A stretch of 43,204 nt of DNA from a virus: UHGV virus genome UHGV-0865506; one strand, given 5' to 3'. Below are positions 6,003 to 13,982 of the stretch, piece by piece. The notes below the pieces were generated by a model. The model made no database searches, was not told the origin of the DNA, and saw only the letters and a program-made list of their open reading frames with translations. Position 1 is the first letter of the stretch, and every line of letters starts with the position of its first letter. A program made the translations under genes and the position numbers.

Positions 6003-7264
6003 TTTTAAAGGAACGCGGCGGCAATAACGACGTACACGCTTTACTGTCGCCGTCAGGCGCTAAGAAGTGGCTAAGTTGCGCCGCATCGCTGGCTTGTGAA
6101 AAAGATATTCCTAACACGTCGGGTAAATCCGCCGTTACGGGGACAGCGTGTCACACAATAGCTGAGGTACATCTAAACCAGTACATCAAAGGCACTGCGC
6201 TGCCGTTAGAGCGTGAAGTCGGTGCGTACGTGCTGGATGAGGGTAAAGGACAGATTAAGGCACTAATCAGTCCGATGAAAGGTGCGGTACTGATTACGGC
6301 TGACATGATTGAGCAGGTGCGCAAGTATACCGACTACTGTAAACCGATTATCGATGTAGCGACTTACGCCAAGCTGGAAATGCGTGTCAATCTTACTGAG
6401 GTATTGCATCCGGGATACATCCATAGCCCCGGTGGGAGGCAAGAAGAAATTCAAACCTTCGGAACCGCTGACCTTGTTGCCGTGCAGGAACTGGCCAACA
6501 CTGATGAGCACATGTTAATTATCGGCGACCTGAAAACCGGACGGCATCGTGTCGAAGCGAAAGAAAACAAGCAGCTTATGCTTTACGCTCTCGGTGTTTA
6601 TCGCCGACTCAAGAGACGTTATAACATAACAACCGTTCGTCTGGTCATCTTCCAGCCGTACGCGGGCGGTGCGTCGGAGTGGGACATCTCGGTTGAAGGT
6701 CTGGAACTGTTCGCTAAGTTCGCCCAGAAGCGCGCACTGTTAGCGCTTGATGCGTATTTCCGCGGTAAGAAGAACCTGAAAGCGTCGGACTTCAAGCCGT
6801 CGGTAGATGGTTGTCAGTGGTGTCGGTTCTCAGAACAGTGCGCAGCGCGTACAAAAACCGTTAACGCGGTACTGGCGGAAGAACTGGAGGACGACTTTGC
6901 TCTTGAAATGACACCTGAGCAACTCGTAGCTGAGTATGAGAAGTTGCCGTTGTTGCGCCAGCACATCGACAAGGTTGAGAAAGCTATGGCTGCCGCGCTG
7001 CATTCGGGTAAGAAAGTTCCGGGGTACAAGCTGGTTGAAGGTCGCCCGGGTAATCGTGCATGGAAAGACACTGATGCGGTATTCGAGAAGTACGGTACTA
7101 TGCTGCAAAAGGTAGTGCTCATGACGCCAACCGAAGCTGTTAAAGTTGTGCCGGAAGAAGAACTGAAAGACTTCATTACTCGTAAGCCAGGAGCGCCGTG
7201 CGTCACAACGGCAGATGACAAACGGCCTGAGTGGAATCAGGTAACAGAGGAGGATTTGGAATGA
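5999..7264 (+). CDS. PD-(D/E)XK nuclease, Cas4/RecB-like (DUF2800-type)
   Basis: N-terminal LSPSGAKKWLSC, central IIGDLKTG and C-terminal cysteine cluster CQWCRFSEQC are typical of Cas4-like nucleases; ATGA coupling to the upstream gene. Confidence 0.7.
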   Translation: MILKERGGNNDVHALLSPSGAKKWLSCAASLACEKDIPNTSGKSAVTGTACHTIAEVHLNQYIKGTALPLEREVGAYVLDEGKGQIKALISPMKGAVLITADMIEQVRKYTDYCKPIIDVATYAKLEMRVNLTEVLHPGYIHSPGGRQEEIQTFGTADLVAVQELANTDEHMLIIGDLKTGRHRVEAKENKQLMLYALGVYRRLKRRYNITTVRLVIFQPYAGGASEWDISVEGLELFAKFAQKRALLALDAYFRGKKNLKASDFKPSVDGCQWCRFSEQCAARTKTVNAVLAEELEDDFALEMTPEQLVAEYEKLPLLRQHIDKVEKAMAAALHSGKKVPGYKLVEGRPGNRAWKDTDAVFEKYGTMLQKVVLMTPTEAVKVVPEEELKDFITRKPGAPCVTTADDKRPEWNQVTEEDLE

Positions 7265-7761
7265 GTTTAGTTCGGGAGCGTTTCATTTATGAAAACGGGA
7301 AACTAATCTATCGCCACAATACAAAAAGAATGTTAGCTGGTCAGGAGGCAGGAAGCCTCCACCATTCAGGGTATGTGCAGATCTACATTAATCGTAAGTC
7401 CTACCAAAGAAGCCGTTTAATATGGGAGTACCACAACGGCCCTATACCTGAAGGGTTTGAGGTGGACCATATAAATGCGATAAGAAATGATGACAGGATA
7501 GAGAATCTCCAGTTAATCGCTCATAGCGATAATGTGGCTAAAGGCGGCATTCAAACCGGAAGAAGTCATAACAAAAGCGGGTACACTGGCGTGTTTTGGC
7601 GCAAAAGCCATGGTAAATGGCAGGCTGGAATTACCGTAAACGGGCAATATCGTTACCTTGGACTATTCGAAACTCCTGAACAGGCTAACGTGGCGAGAAA
7701 GAATTTTGAAAGTAATTTGCTAAAAGAAGTTGACTACCGAATAGCGAACTATTATAGTTAA
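7261..7761 (+). CDS. HNH homing endonuclease with AP2 DNA-binding domain
   Basis: HNH motifs (YHNGPIPEGFEVDHINAIRNDDRIENLQLIAHSDN) followed by an AP2-like segment (GVFWRKSHGKWQAGITVNGQYRYLGLFETPEQA). Confidence 0.8.
   Translation: MSLVRERFIYENGKLIYRHNTKRMLAGQEAGSLHHSGYVQIYINRKSYQRSRLIWEYHNGPIPEGFEVDHINAIRNDDRIENLQLIAHSDNVAKGGIQTGRSHNKSGYTGVFWRKSHGKWQAGITVNGQYRYLGLFETPEQANVARKNFESNLLKEVDYRIANYYS
7730..7758 (+). promoter_or_regulatory. sigma70 promoter TTGACT-N17-TATAGT embedded in the 3' end of the HNH gene
   Basis: Near-consensus hexamers; part of a 32-bp repeat shared with 11631..11660. Confidence 0.5.
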
Positions 7762-8468: not shown

Positions 8469-8491
8469 AGGCCCTTCATTGGGCCTTTTTA
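8469..8491 (+). terminator. rho-independent terminator
   Basis: Hairpin AGGCCC-TTCATT-GGGCCT followed by TTTTT. Confidence 0.6.
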
Positions 8492-8502
8492 CCGGAGTCA
8501 GA

Positions 8503-8976
8503 ATGGAACATATAAAAGATTTTCTTAGTTATAACCGAGAAACCGGAATATTCACATGGATACAACCTACGTACAGACGAGGGAGACCCGGAGACATTGC
8601 GGGATGTATGAATAGTAGCGGATACTGGCGCATACCCTACATGGGTAGATACTACATGGCCCATAGGCTTGCTTGGTTTTTCGAGTACGGCGAATGGCCT
8701 GAGGGGCCTCTTGACCATATAAACCGTGACAGGTTAGACAATAGGATTTCTAACCTAAGGAAAGCAACCACAGCGGATAATGTGCGAAACGCTAAAAATA
8801 AGGGAGCTAGAACGGGAGTTAAGGGAGTAGTTAAAAACGGCAACCGGTTTTATGGGCGTGTACATTTTAACTACAAAAGTTATAACGCTGGTAGCTACGG
8901 AACTCTTGAAGAAGCAGAAAGCGCTGTAAAGAAATTAAGAGAAAAACTGCATAAGGAATTTTATTGCCATGACTAG
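8503..8976 (+). CDS. HNH homing endonuclease with AP2-like domain (second copy)
   Basis: HNH motifs (EGPLDHINRDRLDNRISNLR) plus AP2-like GVKGVVKNGNRFYGRVHF; start at internal Met with GGAG Shine-Dalgarno. Confidence 0.8.
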   Translation: MEHIKDFLSYNRETGIFTWIQPTYRRGRPGDIAGCMNSSGYWRIPYMGRYYMAHRLAWFFEYGEWPEGPLDHINRDRLDNRISNLRKATTADNVRNAKNKGARTGVKGVVKNGNRFYGRVHFNYKSYNAGSYGTLEEAESAVKKLREKLHKEFYCHD

Positions 8977-11294: not shown

Positions 11295-11389
11295 AAATTT
11301 ACTGGTTCTACGAAGAAGACTGTCGAATCTGCCCGCGCTGTGGTATCGAGCATACGAAACGGGAGGGGTGCATAGATGAGTACGCCTGA
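11291..11389 (+). CDS. small Cys-rich zinc-ribbon-like peptide (about 32 aa), candidate
   Basis: Hand-derived ORF MKIYWFYEEDCRICPRCGIEHTKREGCIDEYA, coupled by ATGA overlaps on both sides. Confidence 0.25.
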   Translation: MKIYWFYEEDCRICPRCGIEHTKREGCIDEYA

Positions 11390-11663
11390 GGGGCGCATCC
11401 AGAAATACGCAAAAGAGCGATTCGAGGCTATCGGCGGCCTCGTACGCAAATTGTCGTACGAAAATAGAGCGGGCGCTCCTGACCTGCTGGTAATTCTCCC
11501 CGGCGGCATCATCTGGTTCGTCGAGGTTAAGAAAGACGAAAACACGAAGCCAGACCCACACCAGCTACGAGAGCACGAGCGGATGCGTAAACGTGGAGCA
11601 AATGTTTTTGTCGTTGGTTCGTTTAAACAGGTTGACGACCTAATAGCGAACTATTATAGTTAG
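11376..11663 (+). CDS. VRR-NUC domain nuclease
   Basis: GAPDLLV...WFVEVKKD matches the PD-(D/E)XK core of VRR-NUC proteins; position after DNA polymerase is typical. Confidence 0.7.
   Translation: MSTPEGRIQKYAKERFEAIGGLVRKLSYENRAGAPDLLVILPGGIIWFVEVKKDENTKPDPHQLREHERMRKRGANVFVVGSFKQVDDLIANYYS
11632..11660 (+). promoter_or_regulatory. sigma70 promoter TTGACG-N17-TATAGT embedded in the 3' end of the VRR-NUC gene
   Basis: Part of the 32-bp repeat shared with 7730..7758. Confidence 0.5.
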
Positions 11664-11693: not shown

Positions 11694-11885
11694 ATGAAAC
11701 ACGAATATGACCGTAAACCAGCACGTGACATCGTACCTGGCGACATGATTTTCAACGTTAAGACACGTCGCCCTGTTGCCGTTGATACGGTGTTCGTCGA
11801 GTCGAACGGTAAACTGGTTATCGAAGATGTAACTGGTAACGTTACGGCGTTCGGGCGTAAAGAGCTGGTGCTGGTGGCAAAATGA
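11694..11885 (+). CDS. hypothetical protein
   Basis: Track ORF with AAGGAA Shine-Dalgarno. Confidence 0.5.
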   Translation: MKHEYDRKPARDIVPGDMIFNVKTRRPVAVDTVFVESNGKLVIEDVTGNVTAFGRKELVLVAK

Positions 11886-12565
11886 TTGTCTGGTCATTGT
11901 TTGACGGTTCGGGCCTTATGGCCCAACCGTGGGCAGAAGCGGGCCATACTTGCTATTGTTTCAACTACGATGGTGCCGACCACGGCGACTACGCGCGATT
12001 GGGCGCAAAAGTTGAACACGAGAACATCCACTATATAAACGCGTGGATTGATAATAAGTTCGACTTCGAGGTTTCGCCAGATATTATTTTTGCGTTCCCT
12101 CCTTGCACAGATTTAGCCGTTAGTGGCGCGGCGCATTTCGAAACGAAGCGTAAGAAGAACCCAACGTTTCAGGTAGAGGCTGTTATCACATGCAAAGTGG
12201 CGGCACGCCTGGCTAAAAGGTATAACGTACCTTATATGATTGAGAACCCAGTTAGCGTCCTCTCGTCTTTGTGGCGTAAGCCCGATTATGTGTTCAATCC
12301 TTACGAATACGGCGGCTATCTACCGGAAGACGATACGCATCCAATGTTCCCTGAATACATAAAACCCCGAGACGCGTACCCTAAAAAGACATGTCTTTGG
12401 ACGGGTAATGGTTTCGTAATGCCGGTTAAGTCAGGTGTTGCCGTGGGTGATGGGTATTCTGACCAGCACAACAAACTTGGCGGTAAATCAGTGCGGACAA
12501 AAACAATCCGCAGCCTTACTCCTCGGGGTTTCGCAAAAGCAGTTTACGAGGCTAATCATGTCTAA
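11882..12565 (+). CDS. DNA (cytosine-5)-methyltransferase-like protein, compact, no obvious target-recognition domain
   Basis: LFDGSG (motif I-like), FAFPPCTDLAVSG (PC catalytic motif IV-like), MIENPVS (ENV motif VI-like); only 227 aa. Confidence 0.5.
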   Translation: MIVWSLFDGSGLMAQPWAEAGHTCYCFNYDGADHGDYARLGAKVEHENIHYINAWIDNKFDFEVSPDIIFAFPPCTDLAVSGAAHFETKRKKNPTFQVEAVITCKVAARLAKRYNVPYMIENPVSVLSSLWRKPDYVFNPYEYGGYLPEDDTHPMFPEYIKPRDAYPKKTCLWTGNGFVMPVKSGVAVGDGYSDQHNKLGGKSVRTKTIRSLTPRGFAKAVYEANHV

Positions 12566-13982
12566 GTTTCAAAGACGCGAGTACCAGAAACTCATGACCT
12601 CGTTCATGTTGCAACACCATCGCTGCAACATATGGGCAAGCATGGGCGCCGGGAAGACTGGCAGCGTACTGTGGGCATTAAACCGACTGTTCCGAAACGG
12701 GCAGCTTAATGACGAGGACCGCGTGTTAATCCTCGCCCCGTTACGTGTTGCGTCTGGCACATGGCCAGCAGAACAAGAGAAATGGAATTTCCCATGCCTG
12801 AGTGTCGTCGATGCTACCGGTTCAGAGAAGCGCCGCATCGCGGCGCTGGAGTCAGACGCTAATGTAATTTGTATTAACTATGAGGTTATAGAGTGGCTTA
12901 TCGACTATTACGGGGTAGATGACTGGCCCTTTACTGTGATAGTTAACGATGAAAGTACAAAGTTGAAATCGTACCGTAGCCGTTCTGGCGGGAGCAAGAG
13001 GGCAAAGGCGCTTAGTAAAGTAGCATTTAGAAATGTTAAGCGGCTGATAAACCTTACGGGAACACCGTCGCCGAACGGCCTCAAAGACTTGTGGGGGCAG
13101 AACTGGTTTATTGACGCTGGCGAGCGCCTCGGTTCTTCATACACGGCATTCACCGACCGATGGTTTAACTCTGTACAGAAAGGCAAATCGGCTATGGCGC
13201 GTGAGTACCATGCCCGCCCTGGTGCTGATAATGAGATTCACCAGAAGATGAAGGACATCAGTCTTACGATTGATGCTGCCGAGTGGTTCGGTTGTGAAGC
13301 ACCTATTATCGTGCCGGTGGAAATTGACCTGCCGAAGAAAGCACGTCAGGCGTACATCGATATGGAGGAGAAGTTATTCGCTGAACTTGAGAGCGGGGAA
13401 GTTGAAGCGGCTAACGCAGCGGCGAAGACGTCGAAGTGTTTGCAGATTGCATCCGGTGCCGTATATGTGTCCGGGCCGGATGGTGAAGCAACGAAAGAAT
13501 GGGAGAAAGTGCACGACACGAAACTGGATGCGCTGGAGTCCATTGTTGAGGAGTTACAGGGCGCGCCGTTACTGGTGGCCTATCAGTTCAAGCATGAACT
13601 GGAGCGTATCCTTAAGCGATTCCCACAGGCCCAGGCGTTTGCAAAAGGCGCTAAGGGCAATAAGCAGATGGAAGCGTGGAACCGCGGTGAAATCGAGATT
13701 TTGTGTGTGCATCCCGCATCAGCCGGGCATGGTTTGAATTTACAGGACGGCGGGCATCATCTGGCGTTTATTTCACAAGGGTGGAACCTTGAGCACTATT
13801 TGCAGGTTGTCGAGCGTATAGGCCCAGTACGCCAGAAACAGGCAGGCCATGAGCGCCCGGTGTTCCTGTATCACATCGTAGCTAAAGACACGCTGGACGA
13901 GGTTGTTGCCGCGCGTACCGACGAGAAGAAATCGGTGCAGGAAGAATTGCTTAATTACATGAAGAGACGAGGTAAGAAATGA
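12558..13982 (+). CDS. SNF2-family helicase
   Basis: Walker A ASMGAGKT, DExx box VNDEST, C-terminal helicase motifs; start at internal Met overlapping the upstream stop. Confidence 0.8.
   Translation: MSKFQRREYQKLMTSFMLQHHRCNIWASMGAGKTGSVLWALNRLFRNGQLNDEDRVLILAPLRVASGTWPAEQEKWNFPCLSVVDATGSEKRRIAALESDANVICINYEVIEWLIDYYGVDDWPFTVIVNDESTKLKSYRSRSGGSKRAKALSKVAFRNVKRLINLTGTPSPNGLKDLWGQNWFIDAGERLGSSYTAFTDRWFNSVQKGKSAMAREYHARPGADNEIHQKMKDISLTIDAAEWFGCEAPIIVPVEIDLPKKARQAYIDMEEKLFAELESGEVEAANAAAKTSKCLQIASGAVYVSGPDGEATKEWEKVHDTKLDALESIVEELQGAPLLVAYQFKHELERILKRFPQAQAFAKGAKGNKQMEAWNRGEIEILCVHPASAGHGLNLQDGGHHLAFISQGWNLEHYLQVVERIGPVRQKQAGHERPVFLYHIVAKDTLDEVVAARTDEKKSVQEELLNYMKRRGKK

What the first reader, a model, noticed from the sequence alone, without database searches (positions are those of the whole stretch)
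11882..12565. Compact C5-methyltransferase-like protein without obvious target-recognition domain
Motif I-like LFDGSG, catalytic PC-like FPPCTD and ENV-like IENPVS occur in the canonical order, but the protein is only 227 aa, well below typical C5 methyltransferases. It could be a minimal methyltransferase protecting phage DNA, a nucleotide-modifying enzyme, or an inactive relic.
Basis: partly seen in the sequence, partly recalled or inferred. Interest (0 to 1): 0.5.

Follow-up and report, generated by a model that had tools for sequence, protein, structure and literature searches.

The report
Compact phage cytosine-C5 DNA methyltransferase
This gene encodes an unusually small but apparently complete DNA cytosine-C5 methyltransferase of a family that is very common in phages of enterobacteria; a 57%-identical relative has been reported to make 5-methylcytosine, so the finding is real but not new.

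The parts
11882..12565 (+). Coding sequence of the compact C5-cytosine DNA methyltransferase (227 aa plus stop)
11897..11914 (+). Motif I (LFDGSG, residues 6-11), the SAM-binding loop after strand beta1
   Evidence: Position. L6 is 94%, D8 77% and G11 76% conserved. hhalign aligns it with DNMT3A 'SLFDGIATG'.
11963..11971 (+). Motif II position at the end of strand beta2 (N28-Y-D30). Asn replaces the Asp found in 94% of distant relatives.
   Evidence: The 'FNxD' form is shared by all relatives of about 55% identity or more, including KarlJaspers.
12095..12112 (+). Motif IV (FPPCTD, residues 72-77) with the catalytic nucleophile Cys75 (codon 12104-12106)
   Evidence: C75 is 99% conserved. It aligns to M.HhaI Cys81 and equals Cys82 of K42/KarlJaspers Dcm.
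12239..12256 (+). Motif VI (IENPVS, residues 120-125) with Glu121 (codon 12242-12244)
   Evidence: E121 and P123 are invariant and N122 is 95% conserved. E121 aligns to M.HhaI Glu119 and equals Glu128 of K42 Dcm.
12296..12388 (+). Motif VIII-like region (residues 139-169): 'NPYEYGGYLP', a conserved insertion of about 18 residues (HP..P..I), then D164-A-Y166-P-K168-K169 leading into strand beta7
   Evidence: P140, Y166 and K168 are invariant or 99% conserved. Positions 150-160 are occupied in only 67-76% of members. K168/K169 equal K175/K176 mutated in K42 Dcm. The assignment as motif VIII is inferred from the pattern and the order of secondary-structure elements.
12407..12490 (+). Short segment between strand beta7 and the C-terminal helices (residues 176-203). 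It takes the place of the target-recognition domain. Residues 187-198 are the most variable part of the protein.
   Evidence: Column entropies and secondary structure of the model. It is 28 residues long, against roughly 80 in M.HhaI (M.HhaI domain boundaries are from my knowledge of that enzyme).
12491..12562 (+). C-terminal helix pair (residues 204-210 and 215-225) carrying R210-S-x-T-P214-R215-G216-F217-A. This is the presumed fused motif IX/X.
   Evidence: R210 97%, P214 94%, G216 97% and A220 94% conserved. Helices are from the model. Equivalence to DNMT3A '...RQRLLGRSWSVPV' is inferred from the pattern only. Profile alignment of this part was not reliable.
11694..11885 (+). Upstream 63-aa ORF whose stop codon overlaps the methyltransferase start (ATGA). 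Not a conserved partner.
   Evidence: No Pfam hit. No BLASTP similarity to neighbours of the methyltransferase in five other phages.
12558..13982 (+). Downstream SNF2-family helicase gene. Its ATG overlaps the last 8 nt of the methyltransferase gene. It is context, not shown to be a functional partner.
   Evidence: Sequence. Pfam SNF2-rel_dom E 3.7e-12. The same order is seen in RP180. The helicase is absent next to the homolog in 9NA, Daob, RHph_Y1_10 and kvi.

Best explanation
The gene encodes a stand-alone, catalytically competent DNA cytosine-C5 methyltransferase of the compact phage family PHROG 757, the 'Dcm-like' proteins of Drexlerviridae, Guernseyvirinae, 9NA-like, rV5-like, RB49-like and many other phages.

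Chemistry (inferred from the fold and conserved residues, by analogy with M.HhaI and DNMT3A). The target cytosine is flipped out. The Cys75 thiolate (motif IV, PPC) attacks C6. Glu121 (motif VI, ENP) protonates N3. The methyl group of SAM, held by motifs I-III and the C-terminal helix, goes to C5. Beta-elimination then releases 5-methylcytosine.

DNA recognition (inferred). There is no separate target-recognition domain. Recognition must come from short elements: the loop after Cys75, the conserved insertion at residues 139-169, and the 28-residue segment 176-203. Overall the enzyme is built most like the DNMT3 catalytic domain.

Expression (inferred from overlapping start and stop codons). 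It is made with the replication module: DNA polymerase, small nuclease, methyltransferase, SNF2 helicase.

Biological role (inferred). It marks replicating phage DNA with 5mC and so blunts host restriction enzymes that are sensitive to 5mC.

Reported for a relative. For the K42 enzyme, whose KarlJaspers counterpart is 57% identical to this protein, the preprint reports that the protein alone produces 5mC on retron Ec86 msDNA in E. coli, and that this triggers that abortive-infection system. The gene is therefore also a liability in retron-carrying hosts.

Not known. The recognition sequence has not been mapped. CCWGG is assumed in the literature, not demonstrated.
For: - Family membership: PHROG 757 E 1.7e-87. 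tblastn finds homologs in 1,526 phage records, many annotated as DNA cytosine methyltransferase or Dcm. There are 1,296 clusters at 50% identity, nearly all 200-260 aa.
- Catalytic residues: C75, E121, N122, P123, K168 and R210 are invariant or nearly so. They are in register with M.HhaI C81 and E119 and with DNMT3A motifs I-IV (E 3.4e-4).
- Link to experiment: KarlJaspers bas06_0055 (711 bp) is 57% identical at E 2e-97, and its C82, E128, K175 and K176 correspond to C75, E121, K168 and K169 here. The K42 counterpart gave 5mC on msDNA by LC-MS, lost in the quadruple mutant, and escaper phages had lost the gene. The work was published as Cell Rep 2024;43:114857, cited.
- Selection: dN/dS is 0.05 against the RP180 ortholog.
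- Self-sufficiency: the flanking genes differ in the six phage contexts compared, and BLASTP finds no shared neighbour outside the two Drexlerviridae.
Against: - Sequence-profile support for a methyltransferase is weak. PF00145 scores 17.1 bits against a cut-off of 22 and covers only residues 3-100. Only 3 of 79 relatives hit it at E<=0.01. There is no NCBIfam hit and no significant PDB sequence hit.
- Canonical motif VIII (QxRxR) is absent, and the motif IX/X assignment is only inferred.
- The motif II acid is Asn in this subclade.
- No activity, cofactor or methylation data exist for this protein or this phage.
- The K42 evidence is from a preprint read here, uses a quadruple mutant as control, and does not map the site.
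- Many 6-bp palindromes are still avoided in the genome, so whatever protection it gives is narrow.
Confidence: 0.85

Rival explanations
1. It is only the catalytic half of a methyltransferase and needs a partner for DNA targeting. The partner could be a separate specificity subunit, as in the split enzyme M.AquI, or the adjacent SNF2 helicase, as in the ATPase-coupled DNMT5.
For: - There is no target-recognition domain. Only 28 residues lie between strand beta7 and the C-terminal helices.
- The helicase gene overlaps the 3' end of the methyltransferase gene by 8 nt.
- In BFVD, a domain with this fold (TM 0.67-0.68, 25-29% identity) is part of very large phage proteins of 1,397 and 1,126 aa, the first named 'Helicase/UvrB, N-terminal'.
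- A putative helicase lies two genes away in Drexlerviridae.
Against: - The homologs in 9NA, Arthrobacter phage Daob, Rhizobium phage RHph_Y1_10 and RB49-like phage kvi have no helicase nearby and no shared small neighbour.
- K42 Dcm expressed alone from a plasmid was reported to methylate msDNA and trigger the retron.
- The C-terminal conserved helices look like motifs IX/X, so the catalytic domain appears complete.
Confidence: 0.07
2. It transfers something other than a methyl group, for example carboxymethyl from Cx-SAM like phage CmoX, or it acts on RNA or single-stranded DNA rather than phage duplex DNA.
For: - CmoX selects Cx-SAM through an Arg that replaces M.HhaI Asn304 in motif X (PMC12783734). 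This protein has a conserved Arg215 in its C-terminal 'TPRGF'.
- E. coli supplies Cx-SAM.
- The only substrate reported for a relative is the hairpin of a retron msDNA.
Against: - LC-MS on the K42 relative detected 5mC.
- DNMT3A uses SAM and also has Arg at the matching place (GRSW), an equivalence I infer from the pattern only.
- Arg215 is only 71% conserved in the family.
- No CmoA or amide-ligase gene is annotated in the related phage RP180.
Confidence: 0.04
3. It is a catalytically dead relic or regulatory pseudo-enzyme, comparable to DNMT3L.
For: - It is half the usual size.
- Pfam is sub-threshold.
- The motif II Asp is replaced by Asn.
- Canonical motif VIII is absent.
Against: - The catalytic Cys and Glu are invariant across a family of more than 1,000 clusters.
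- dN/dS is 0.05.
- The Asn28 variant is shared by KarlJaspers, whose near-identical K42 counterpart was reported active.
Confidence: 0.03

Closest known systems
Phage K42 / KarlJaspers (Bas06) 'Dcm-like C5 cytosine methyltransferase', the trigger of retron Ec86 (Eco1) (bioRxiv 10.1101/2023.08.16.553469; Cell Rep 2024;43:114857)
   Same: - Same family and architecture: 57% identity over the full length, E 2e-97, 236 aa against 227 aa.
- The same catalytic Cys, Glu and Lys-Lys, and the same 'FNYD' motif II variant.
- Both lie in an early or replication gene block near a helicase.
   Different: - Different phage family: Drexlerviridae against a Kagunavirus-like member of Guernseyvirinae.
- Different immediate neighbours.
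- Nothing has been measured for the protein in this window.
Eukaryotic DNMT3A/DNMT3B catalytic domains
   Same: - Similar motif wording: 'SLFDG..G' and 'PC-x-DL'.
- A very small recognition region and, apparently, fused motifs IX/X.
   Different: - Only 13-17% identity.
- DNMT3 domains are about 285 aa and work as DNMT3L-assisted oligomers on CpG.
- The oligomeric state and target of the phage enzyme are unknown.
- No evolutionary link was tested.
Classical bacterial type II C5-methyltransferases (M.HhaI, M.HaeIII; Pfam PF00145)
   Same: The same fold and the same order of motifs I, IV and VI. Cys75 and Glu121 align with M.HhaI Cys81 and Glu119.
   Different: - About 100 residues shorter.
- No separate target-recognition domain of about 80 residues.
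- No QxRxR motif VIII.
- Below the PF00145 gathering score.
E. coli Dcm (CCWGG methylase, 472 aa, paired with vsr)
   Same: Same enzyme class. Many phage records use the name 'Dcm' for this family.
   Different: - No significant similarity: BLASTP E 0.37 and hhalign E 0.058, limited to motifs IV-VI.
- Half the size, with no vsr partner.
- The shared name does not justify assuming CCWGG specificity.
Phage DNA cytosine C5-carboxymethyltransferase CmoX (PDB 8yf3; PMC12783734)
   Different: - CmoX has the full-size C5-MTase layout. Its Arg350 corresponds to M.HhaI Asn304, and the solved chain is 333 residues.
- It is typically encoded alongside CmoA and CmoY ligase homologs (abstract).
- It makes 5cxmC. 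None of those companion genes is annotated in the related phage RP180.

Membership tests
C5-cytosine DNA methyltransferase superfamily (Pfam PF00145 / M.HhaI-DNMT type) | Class I SAM-methyltransferase fold with the C5-MTase topology | tested here: met
   [not shown]
C5-cytosine DNA methyltransferase superfamily (Pfam PF00145 / M.HhaI-DNMT type) | Motif IV Pro-Cys with the catalytic cysteine | tested here: met
   FPPCTD, with Cys75 99% conserved. It aligns to M.HhaI Cys81.
C5-cytosine DNA methyltransferase superfamily (Pfam PF00145 / M.HhaI-DNMT type) | Motif VI Glu-Asn-Val with the catalytic glutamate | tested here: met
   IENPVS, with Glu121 invariant and Asn122 95% conserved. Pro is invariant in place of Val. 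Glu121 aligns to M.HhaI Glu119.
C5-cytosine DNA methyltransferase superfamily (Pfam PF00145 / M.HhaI-DNMT type) | Motif I FxGxG and the motif II acidic residue for SAM binding | tested here: inconclusive
   F7-x-G9-x-G11 is present here, but G9 is not conserved in the family. The motif II position is Asn28 here and Asp in 94% of distant members. SAM binding was not tested.
C5-cytosine DNA methyltransferase superfamily (Pfam PF00145 / M.HhaI-DNMT type) | Motif VIII QxRxR | tested here: not met
   There is no QxRxR. D164-A-Y166-P-K168-K169 precedes strand beta7 instead, with Y166 and K168 invariant or 99% conserved. Functional equivalence is inferred only.
C5-cytosine DNA methyltransferase superfamily (Pfam PF00145 / M.HhaI-DNMT type) | Variable target-recognition domain between motifs VIII and IX | tested here: not met
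   Only 28 residues (176-203) lie there. Just residues 187-198 are variable.
C5-cytosine DNA methyltransferase superfamily (Pfam PF00145 / M.HhaI-DNMT type) | Score above the curated Pfam gathering threshold | tested here: not met
   The score is 17.1 bits against 22, at E 0.0039, covering residues 3-100 only. Only 3 of 79 relatives match at E<=0.01.
C5-cytosine DNA methyltransferase superfamily (Pfam PF00145 / M.HhaI-DNMT type) | SAM-dependent formation of 5-methylcytosine in DNA | not testable with these tools
   Reported for the K42 enzyme, whose KarlJaspers counterpart is 57% identical to this protein, by LC-MS of msDNA. Not measured for this protein.
Compact phage 'Dcm-like' methyltransferases (PHROG 757; K42/KarlJaspers Dcm family) | Full-length profile match to the family | tested here: met
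   phrog_757 E 1.7e-87, covering residues 1-226.
Compact phage 'Dcm-like' methyltransferases (PHROG 757; K42/KarlJaspers Dcm family) | Single-domain protein of about 200-260 aa with the conserved family residues | tested here: met
   227 aa, with all invariant and near-invariant family positions present except Asp28, which is Asn across the whole subclade.
Compact phage 'Dcm-like' methyltransferases (PHROG 757; K42/KarlJaspers Dcm family) | Close full-length relationship (57% identity) to the experimentally studied member, with its mutated residues conserved | tested here: met
   57% identity at E 2e-97. C82, E128, K175 and K176 correspond to C75, E121, K168 and K169.
E. coli Dcm / EcoRII-type CCWGG methylases | Sequence relationship to Dcm beyond the generic catalytic motifs | tested here: not met
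   BLASTP E 0.37 and hhalign E 0.058 over motifs IV-VI only.
E. coli Dcm / EcoRII-type CCWGG methylases | Methylation of the inner cytosine of CCWGG | not testable with these tools
   Assumed but not mapped in the K42 study. Mutating CCTGG in the msDNA abolished defence. CCWGG is only mildly under-represented in this genome, 90 against 116 expected, z -2.4.

The most novel reading that the evidence does not exclude
The family may be a mechanistically distinct minimal C5-methyltransferase, despite the 'Dcm' name. With no recognition domain and a DNMT3-like build, it might work as an oligomer. It might recognise a very short or structural target rather than CCWGG, such as hairpins, single-stranded DNA or replicating DNA, possibly in step with the neighbouring helicase. 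That would explain why it methylates retron msDNA in a dcm+ host strain (MG1655) in which the empty-vector control showed only low msDNA methylation. Mapping its sites would then define a new specificity class and give the smallest known C5-methyltransferase scaffold.
Probability: 0.15. Interest if true: 0.55.

Novelty: already known. Interest (0 to 1): 0.22.

Why it matters
For this window the result is mainly an annotation. The gene is the phage's only recognisable DNA methyltransferase, judged from the single methyltransferase annotated in the related phage RP180. It is probably an anti-restriction device, and by analogy with K42 it is a possible trigger of retron Ec86 (Eco1) immunity. Both points bear on host range when such phages are considered for therapy.

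More generally, the family is poorly captured by curated sequence profiles. It falls below the Pfam threshold and has no NCBIfam model, and many GenBank records call it 'hypothetical protein'. At about 230 aa it is far shorter than the classical enzymes compared here, M.HhaI (327 aa) and E. coli Dcm (472 aa). Its recognition sequence has never been mapped.

Tried and rejected
- Sequence searches against solved structures gave nothing significant. The single-sequence search had no hit. The family profile's best relevant hit was DNMT2 at E 0.38, below unrelated dehydrogenases.
- I tried to fix the motif VIII-X equivalences by profile alignment. I built a profile from 120 M.HhaI relatives and ran hhalign locally. 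The relatives were all 71-100% identical, the E-value stayed at 0.042, and the C-terminal alignment had zero confidence. The motif IX/X assignment therefore remains an inference.
- I guessed that P0064 (236 aa, with C82, E128, K175 and K176) was the K42 protein. tblastn showed it belongs to 9NA-like Salmonella phages instead. The true KarlJaspers gene was then fetched directly.
- I looked for a conserved partner gene, either a split-enzyme subunit or the helicase. None was shared across six phage contexts.
- I considered the CmoX-type carboxymethyltransferase idea and ranked it low.
- Genome word statistics cannot settle the specificity. CCWGG is only mildly depleted.
- Literature searches for a methylome or restriction mapping of this family found only the retron study. 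The published Cell Reports version is not held in the library.

Full report
**Observation.** LFDGSG is at residues 6-11, FPPCTD at 72-77 (Cys75) and IENPVS at 120-125 (Glu121). The stop codon of an upstream 63-aa ORF overlaps the start (ATGA). The ATG of the downstream SNF2-family helicase (12558) overlaps the last 8 nt. The gene therefore sits in a translationally coupled block. The block belongs to a replication module:
- a primase-helicase-like AAA_25 protein;
- a Cas4-like PD-(D/E)XK nuclease;
- an Enc34-type ssDNA-binding protein;
- a family A DNA polymerase;
- a small nuclease-like ORF;
- this gene;
- the SNF2 helicase.

The window is a Kagunavirus-like siphophage of Guernseyvirinae, 88-91% identical at the nucleotide level to Raoultella phage RP180 and Escherichia phage vB_EcoS-22664BS2.

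**Is it a methyltransferase? Sequence evidence.** Curated sequence profiles give an almost negative answer.
- Pfam PF00145 scores 17.1 bits (E 0.0039), below its cut-off of 22, and covers only residues 3-100.
- Only 3 of 79 diverse relatives hit PF00145 at E<=0.01.
- NCBIfam has nothing.
- Sequence searches of the PDB have nothing significant.
- hhalign of the family alignment gives E 0.043 against M.HhaI, with Cys75 on Cys81 and Glu121 on Glu119. It gives E 3.4e-4 against the DNMT3A catalytic domain over motifs I-IV.

**Is it a methyltransferase? Structure evidence.** The fold gives a clear answer. An AlphaFold2 model built on a 79-sequence alignment has mean pLDDT 95.1 and pTM 0.91.
- tRNA-specific DNMT2 reaches 9.5-9.6.
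- The first 49 Foldseek matches are all DNMT3A/B/C.

**Family.** PHROG 757 ('DNA methyltransferase') matches end to end at E 1.7e-87. tblastn finds homologs in 1,526 phage records. These include Escherichia, Klebsiella, Salmonella, Vibrio, Arthrobacter and Rhizobium phages, and span Drexlerviridae, Guernseyvirinae, 9NA-like, rV5-like and RB49-like groups. The homologs are annotated variously as DNA cytosine methyltransferase, Dcm or hypothetical protein. The large protein collections hold more than 7,797 clusters at 90% identity and 1,296 at 50% identity, almost all 200-260 aa. Small size is thus a fixed family trait and not a truncation.

Conservation in the 79-sequence alignment:
- Invariant: Glu121, Pro123, Pro140, Tyr166, Trp173 and Pro181.
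- At least 90% conserved: Leu6, Gly21, position 28, Phe72, Pro73, Cys75, Gly82, Lys89, Ala100, Asn122, Asp164, Lys168, Thr170, Arg210, Pro214, Gly216 and Ala220.

One deviation was checked. Position 28 is the motif II acid at the end of strand beta2. It is Asp in 94% of the distant members of the alignment but Asn in this protein. All relatives above about 55% identity share the same 'FNxD' form, so it is a stable subclade feature and not a lesion. Against the RP180 ortholog (95% amino-acid and 90% nucleotide identity), dN/dS is 0.05.

**Link to experiment.** A preprint on retron Ec86 reports the following for phage K42, a close relative of BASEL phage KarlJaspers (bioRxiv 10.1101/2023.08.16.553469; published as Cell Rep 2024;43:114857, cited).
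- K42 escapes the retron by losing a 711-bp 'dcm' gene.
- The protein expressed alone is toxic only in retron-carrying cells.
- msDNA from cells expressing it shows a high 5mC signal by LC-MS.
- That signal is lost in a C82A/E128A/K175A/K176A mutant.

I fetched KarlJaspers (MZ501090). Its 711-bp gene bas06_0055, annotated 'Dcm-like C5 cytosine methyltransferase', is 57% identical to the window protein over the full length at E 2e-97. C82, E128, K175 and K176 fall exactly on C75, E121, K168 and K169, and it has the same 'CFNYD' segment. The window protein is therefore a close full-length relative of an enzyme with reported 5mC-forming activity.

**Architecture and likely mechanism.** The order of secondary-structure elements in the model, together with the conserved residues, gives this reading:

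| Element | Residues | Assignment |
|---|---|---|
| beta1 | 2-6 | motif I |
| beta2 | 23-28 | motif II position |
| beta3 | 49-53 | followed by Asp57 |
| beta4 | 68-71 | followed by PPC (motif IV) |
| two helices | 80-92, 96-114 | |
| beta5 | 118-123 | carries ENP (motif VI) |
| beta6 | 136-138 | |
| conserved stretch | 139-169 | 'NPYEYGGYLP...HP..P..I..RDAYxKK' |
| beta7 | 170-175 | |
| segment | 176-203 | 28 residues; 187-198 is the only strongly variable stretch |
| two helices | 204-210, 215-225 | 'R-S-x-T-P-R-G-F-A' |

I read 139-169 as a motif VIII whose 'DYG.PQxRxR' has been opened by an insertion and whose arginines are replaced by Tyr166 and Lys168. I read the C-terminal helices as a fused motif IX/X resembling DNMT3A '...RQRLLGRSWSVPV'. 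These two assignments are inferences from pattern and element order. The attempt to confirm them by profile alignment failed, and I had no coordinates to superpose.

The chemistry I propose is the standard one for the class. Cys75 attacks C6 of a flipped cytosine, Glu121 protonates N3, the methyl group comes from SAM, and beta-elimination follows. What is missing relative to classical enzymes is the separate target-recognition domain of about 80 residues. This fits with DNMT3, the class member with the smallest recognition region, being the best structural match.

**Partner proteins.** I tested whether the missing domain is supplied by another gene. The flanking genes differ in the six phage contexts examined: this window/RP180, Bas11, Bas06, 9NA, Arthrobacter phage Daob, Rhizobium phage RHph_Y1_10 and RB49-like phage kvi. 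BLASTP finds no shared small neighbour outside the two Drexlerviridae. A helicase is adjacent only in some lineages. BFVD does contain giant phage proteins in which a domain of this fold is joined to other modules, one of them named 'Helicase/UvrB, N-terminal', so a functional liaison in some lineages cannot be excluded. The K42 protein was reported to act when expressed alone. I therefore rate an obligatory partner as unlikely.

**Specificity and role.** The name 'Dcm' does not rest on orthology. E. coli K-12 Dcm (472 aa, fetched) shows no significant similarity: BLASTP E 0.37, and hhalign E 0.058 limited to motifs IV-VI. The retron study assumed CCWGG because the msDNA stem contains CCTGG and mutating it abolished defence. 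The methylated position was not mapped.

In this genome CCWGG is only mildly under-represented, 90 sites against 116 expected, z -2.4. GATC is almost absent, 6 against about 146 expected. Several 6-bp palindromes are missing altogether. Whatever protection the enzyme gives is therefore narrow and not global. Protection of phage DNA from 5mC-sensitive restriction is the conventional role for such orphan enzymes. It is my inference here, not a result.

**Other readings.**
- A carboxymethyltransferase like CmoX is conceivable. CmoX is a strong structural hit, and its Cx-SAM selectivity depends on an Arg in motif X (PMC12783734). However, the K42 product was reported as 5mC, Arg215 is only 71% conserved in the family, and RP180 has no annotated CmoA or ligase gene.
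- An inactive relic is contradicted by residue conservation and by purifying selection.

**Verdict.** The object is an already described and widely annotated phage gene family. A protein 99.6% identical is in GenBank, though it is labelled hypothetical there. The remaining open points are the unmapped recognition sequence, how DNA is recognised without a recognition domain, and the DNMT3-like build. These are of moderate specialist interest and apply to the whole family, not to this window.

Noticed in passing
window 1-43204 (whole window): GATC is almost absent: 6 sites against about 146 expected from a maximal-order Markov model, z about -16. CTAG is also depleted (26 against 71). Several 6-bp palindromes do not occur at all: CAGCTG, GGGCCC, GCCGGC and GAATTC. 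This points to strong selection against Dam, MutH or DpnII-type sites and against type II restriction sites. The related phage RP180 has no Dam-like gene annotated.
   Followed up: partly
window 7231-7761 and 8479-8976 (+): Two HNH_3-domain ORFs, the first with an additional AP2 domain, sit inside the replication module on either side of the Enc34-type ssDNA-binding protein gene. The second lies just upstream of the DNA polymerase gene. They are likely homing endonucleases. RP180 does not have them at the corresponding places.
   Followed up: no
window 11963-11971 (residues 28-30 of the methyltransferase): The motif II position that is Asp in 94% of distant family members is Asn in this protein. 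It is Asn in every relative above about 55% identity ('FNxD'), including KarlJaspers. How the SAM ribose is bound in this subclade is unclear.
   Followed up: partly
BFVD entries A0A6J5SE15 (1397 aa) and A0A6J5NPY6 (1126 aa), not in the window: A domain with the same compact fold (TM 0.67-0.68, 25-29% identity) occurs inside very large proteins of uncultured Caudovirales. One is named 'Helicase/UvrB, N-terminal'. This echoes the overlap of the methyltransferase gene with the SNF2 helicase gene in this window.
   Followed up: no
window 11376-11663 (+): This 95-aa ORF is annotated in relatives as VRR-NUC, restriction endonuclease or Holliday junction resolvase. It has no Pfam hit at E<=0.001.
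   Followed up: no
L006 (Arthrobacter phage Daob) 2077-4136: In this actinophage the compact homolog (gene 48, 651 bp) directly follows a second, larger 'DNA methylase' (gene 47, 1,413 bp) and overlaps it by 4 nt. The pairing of two methylases may be informative about division of labour.
   Followed up: no
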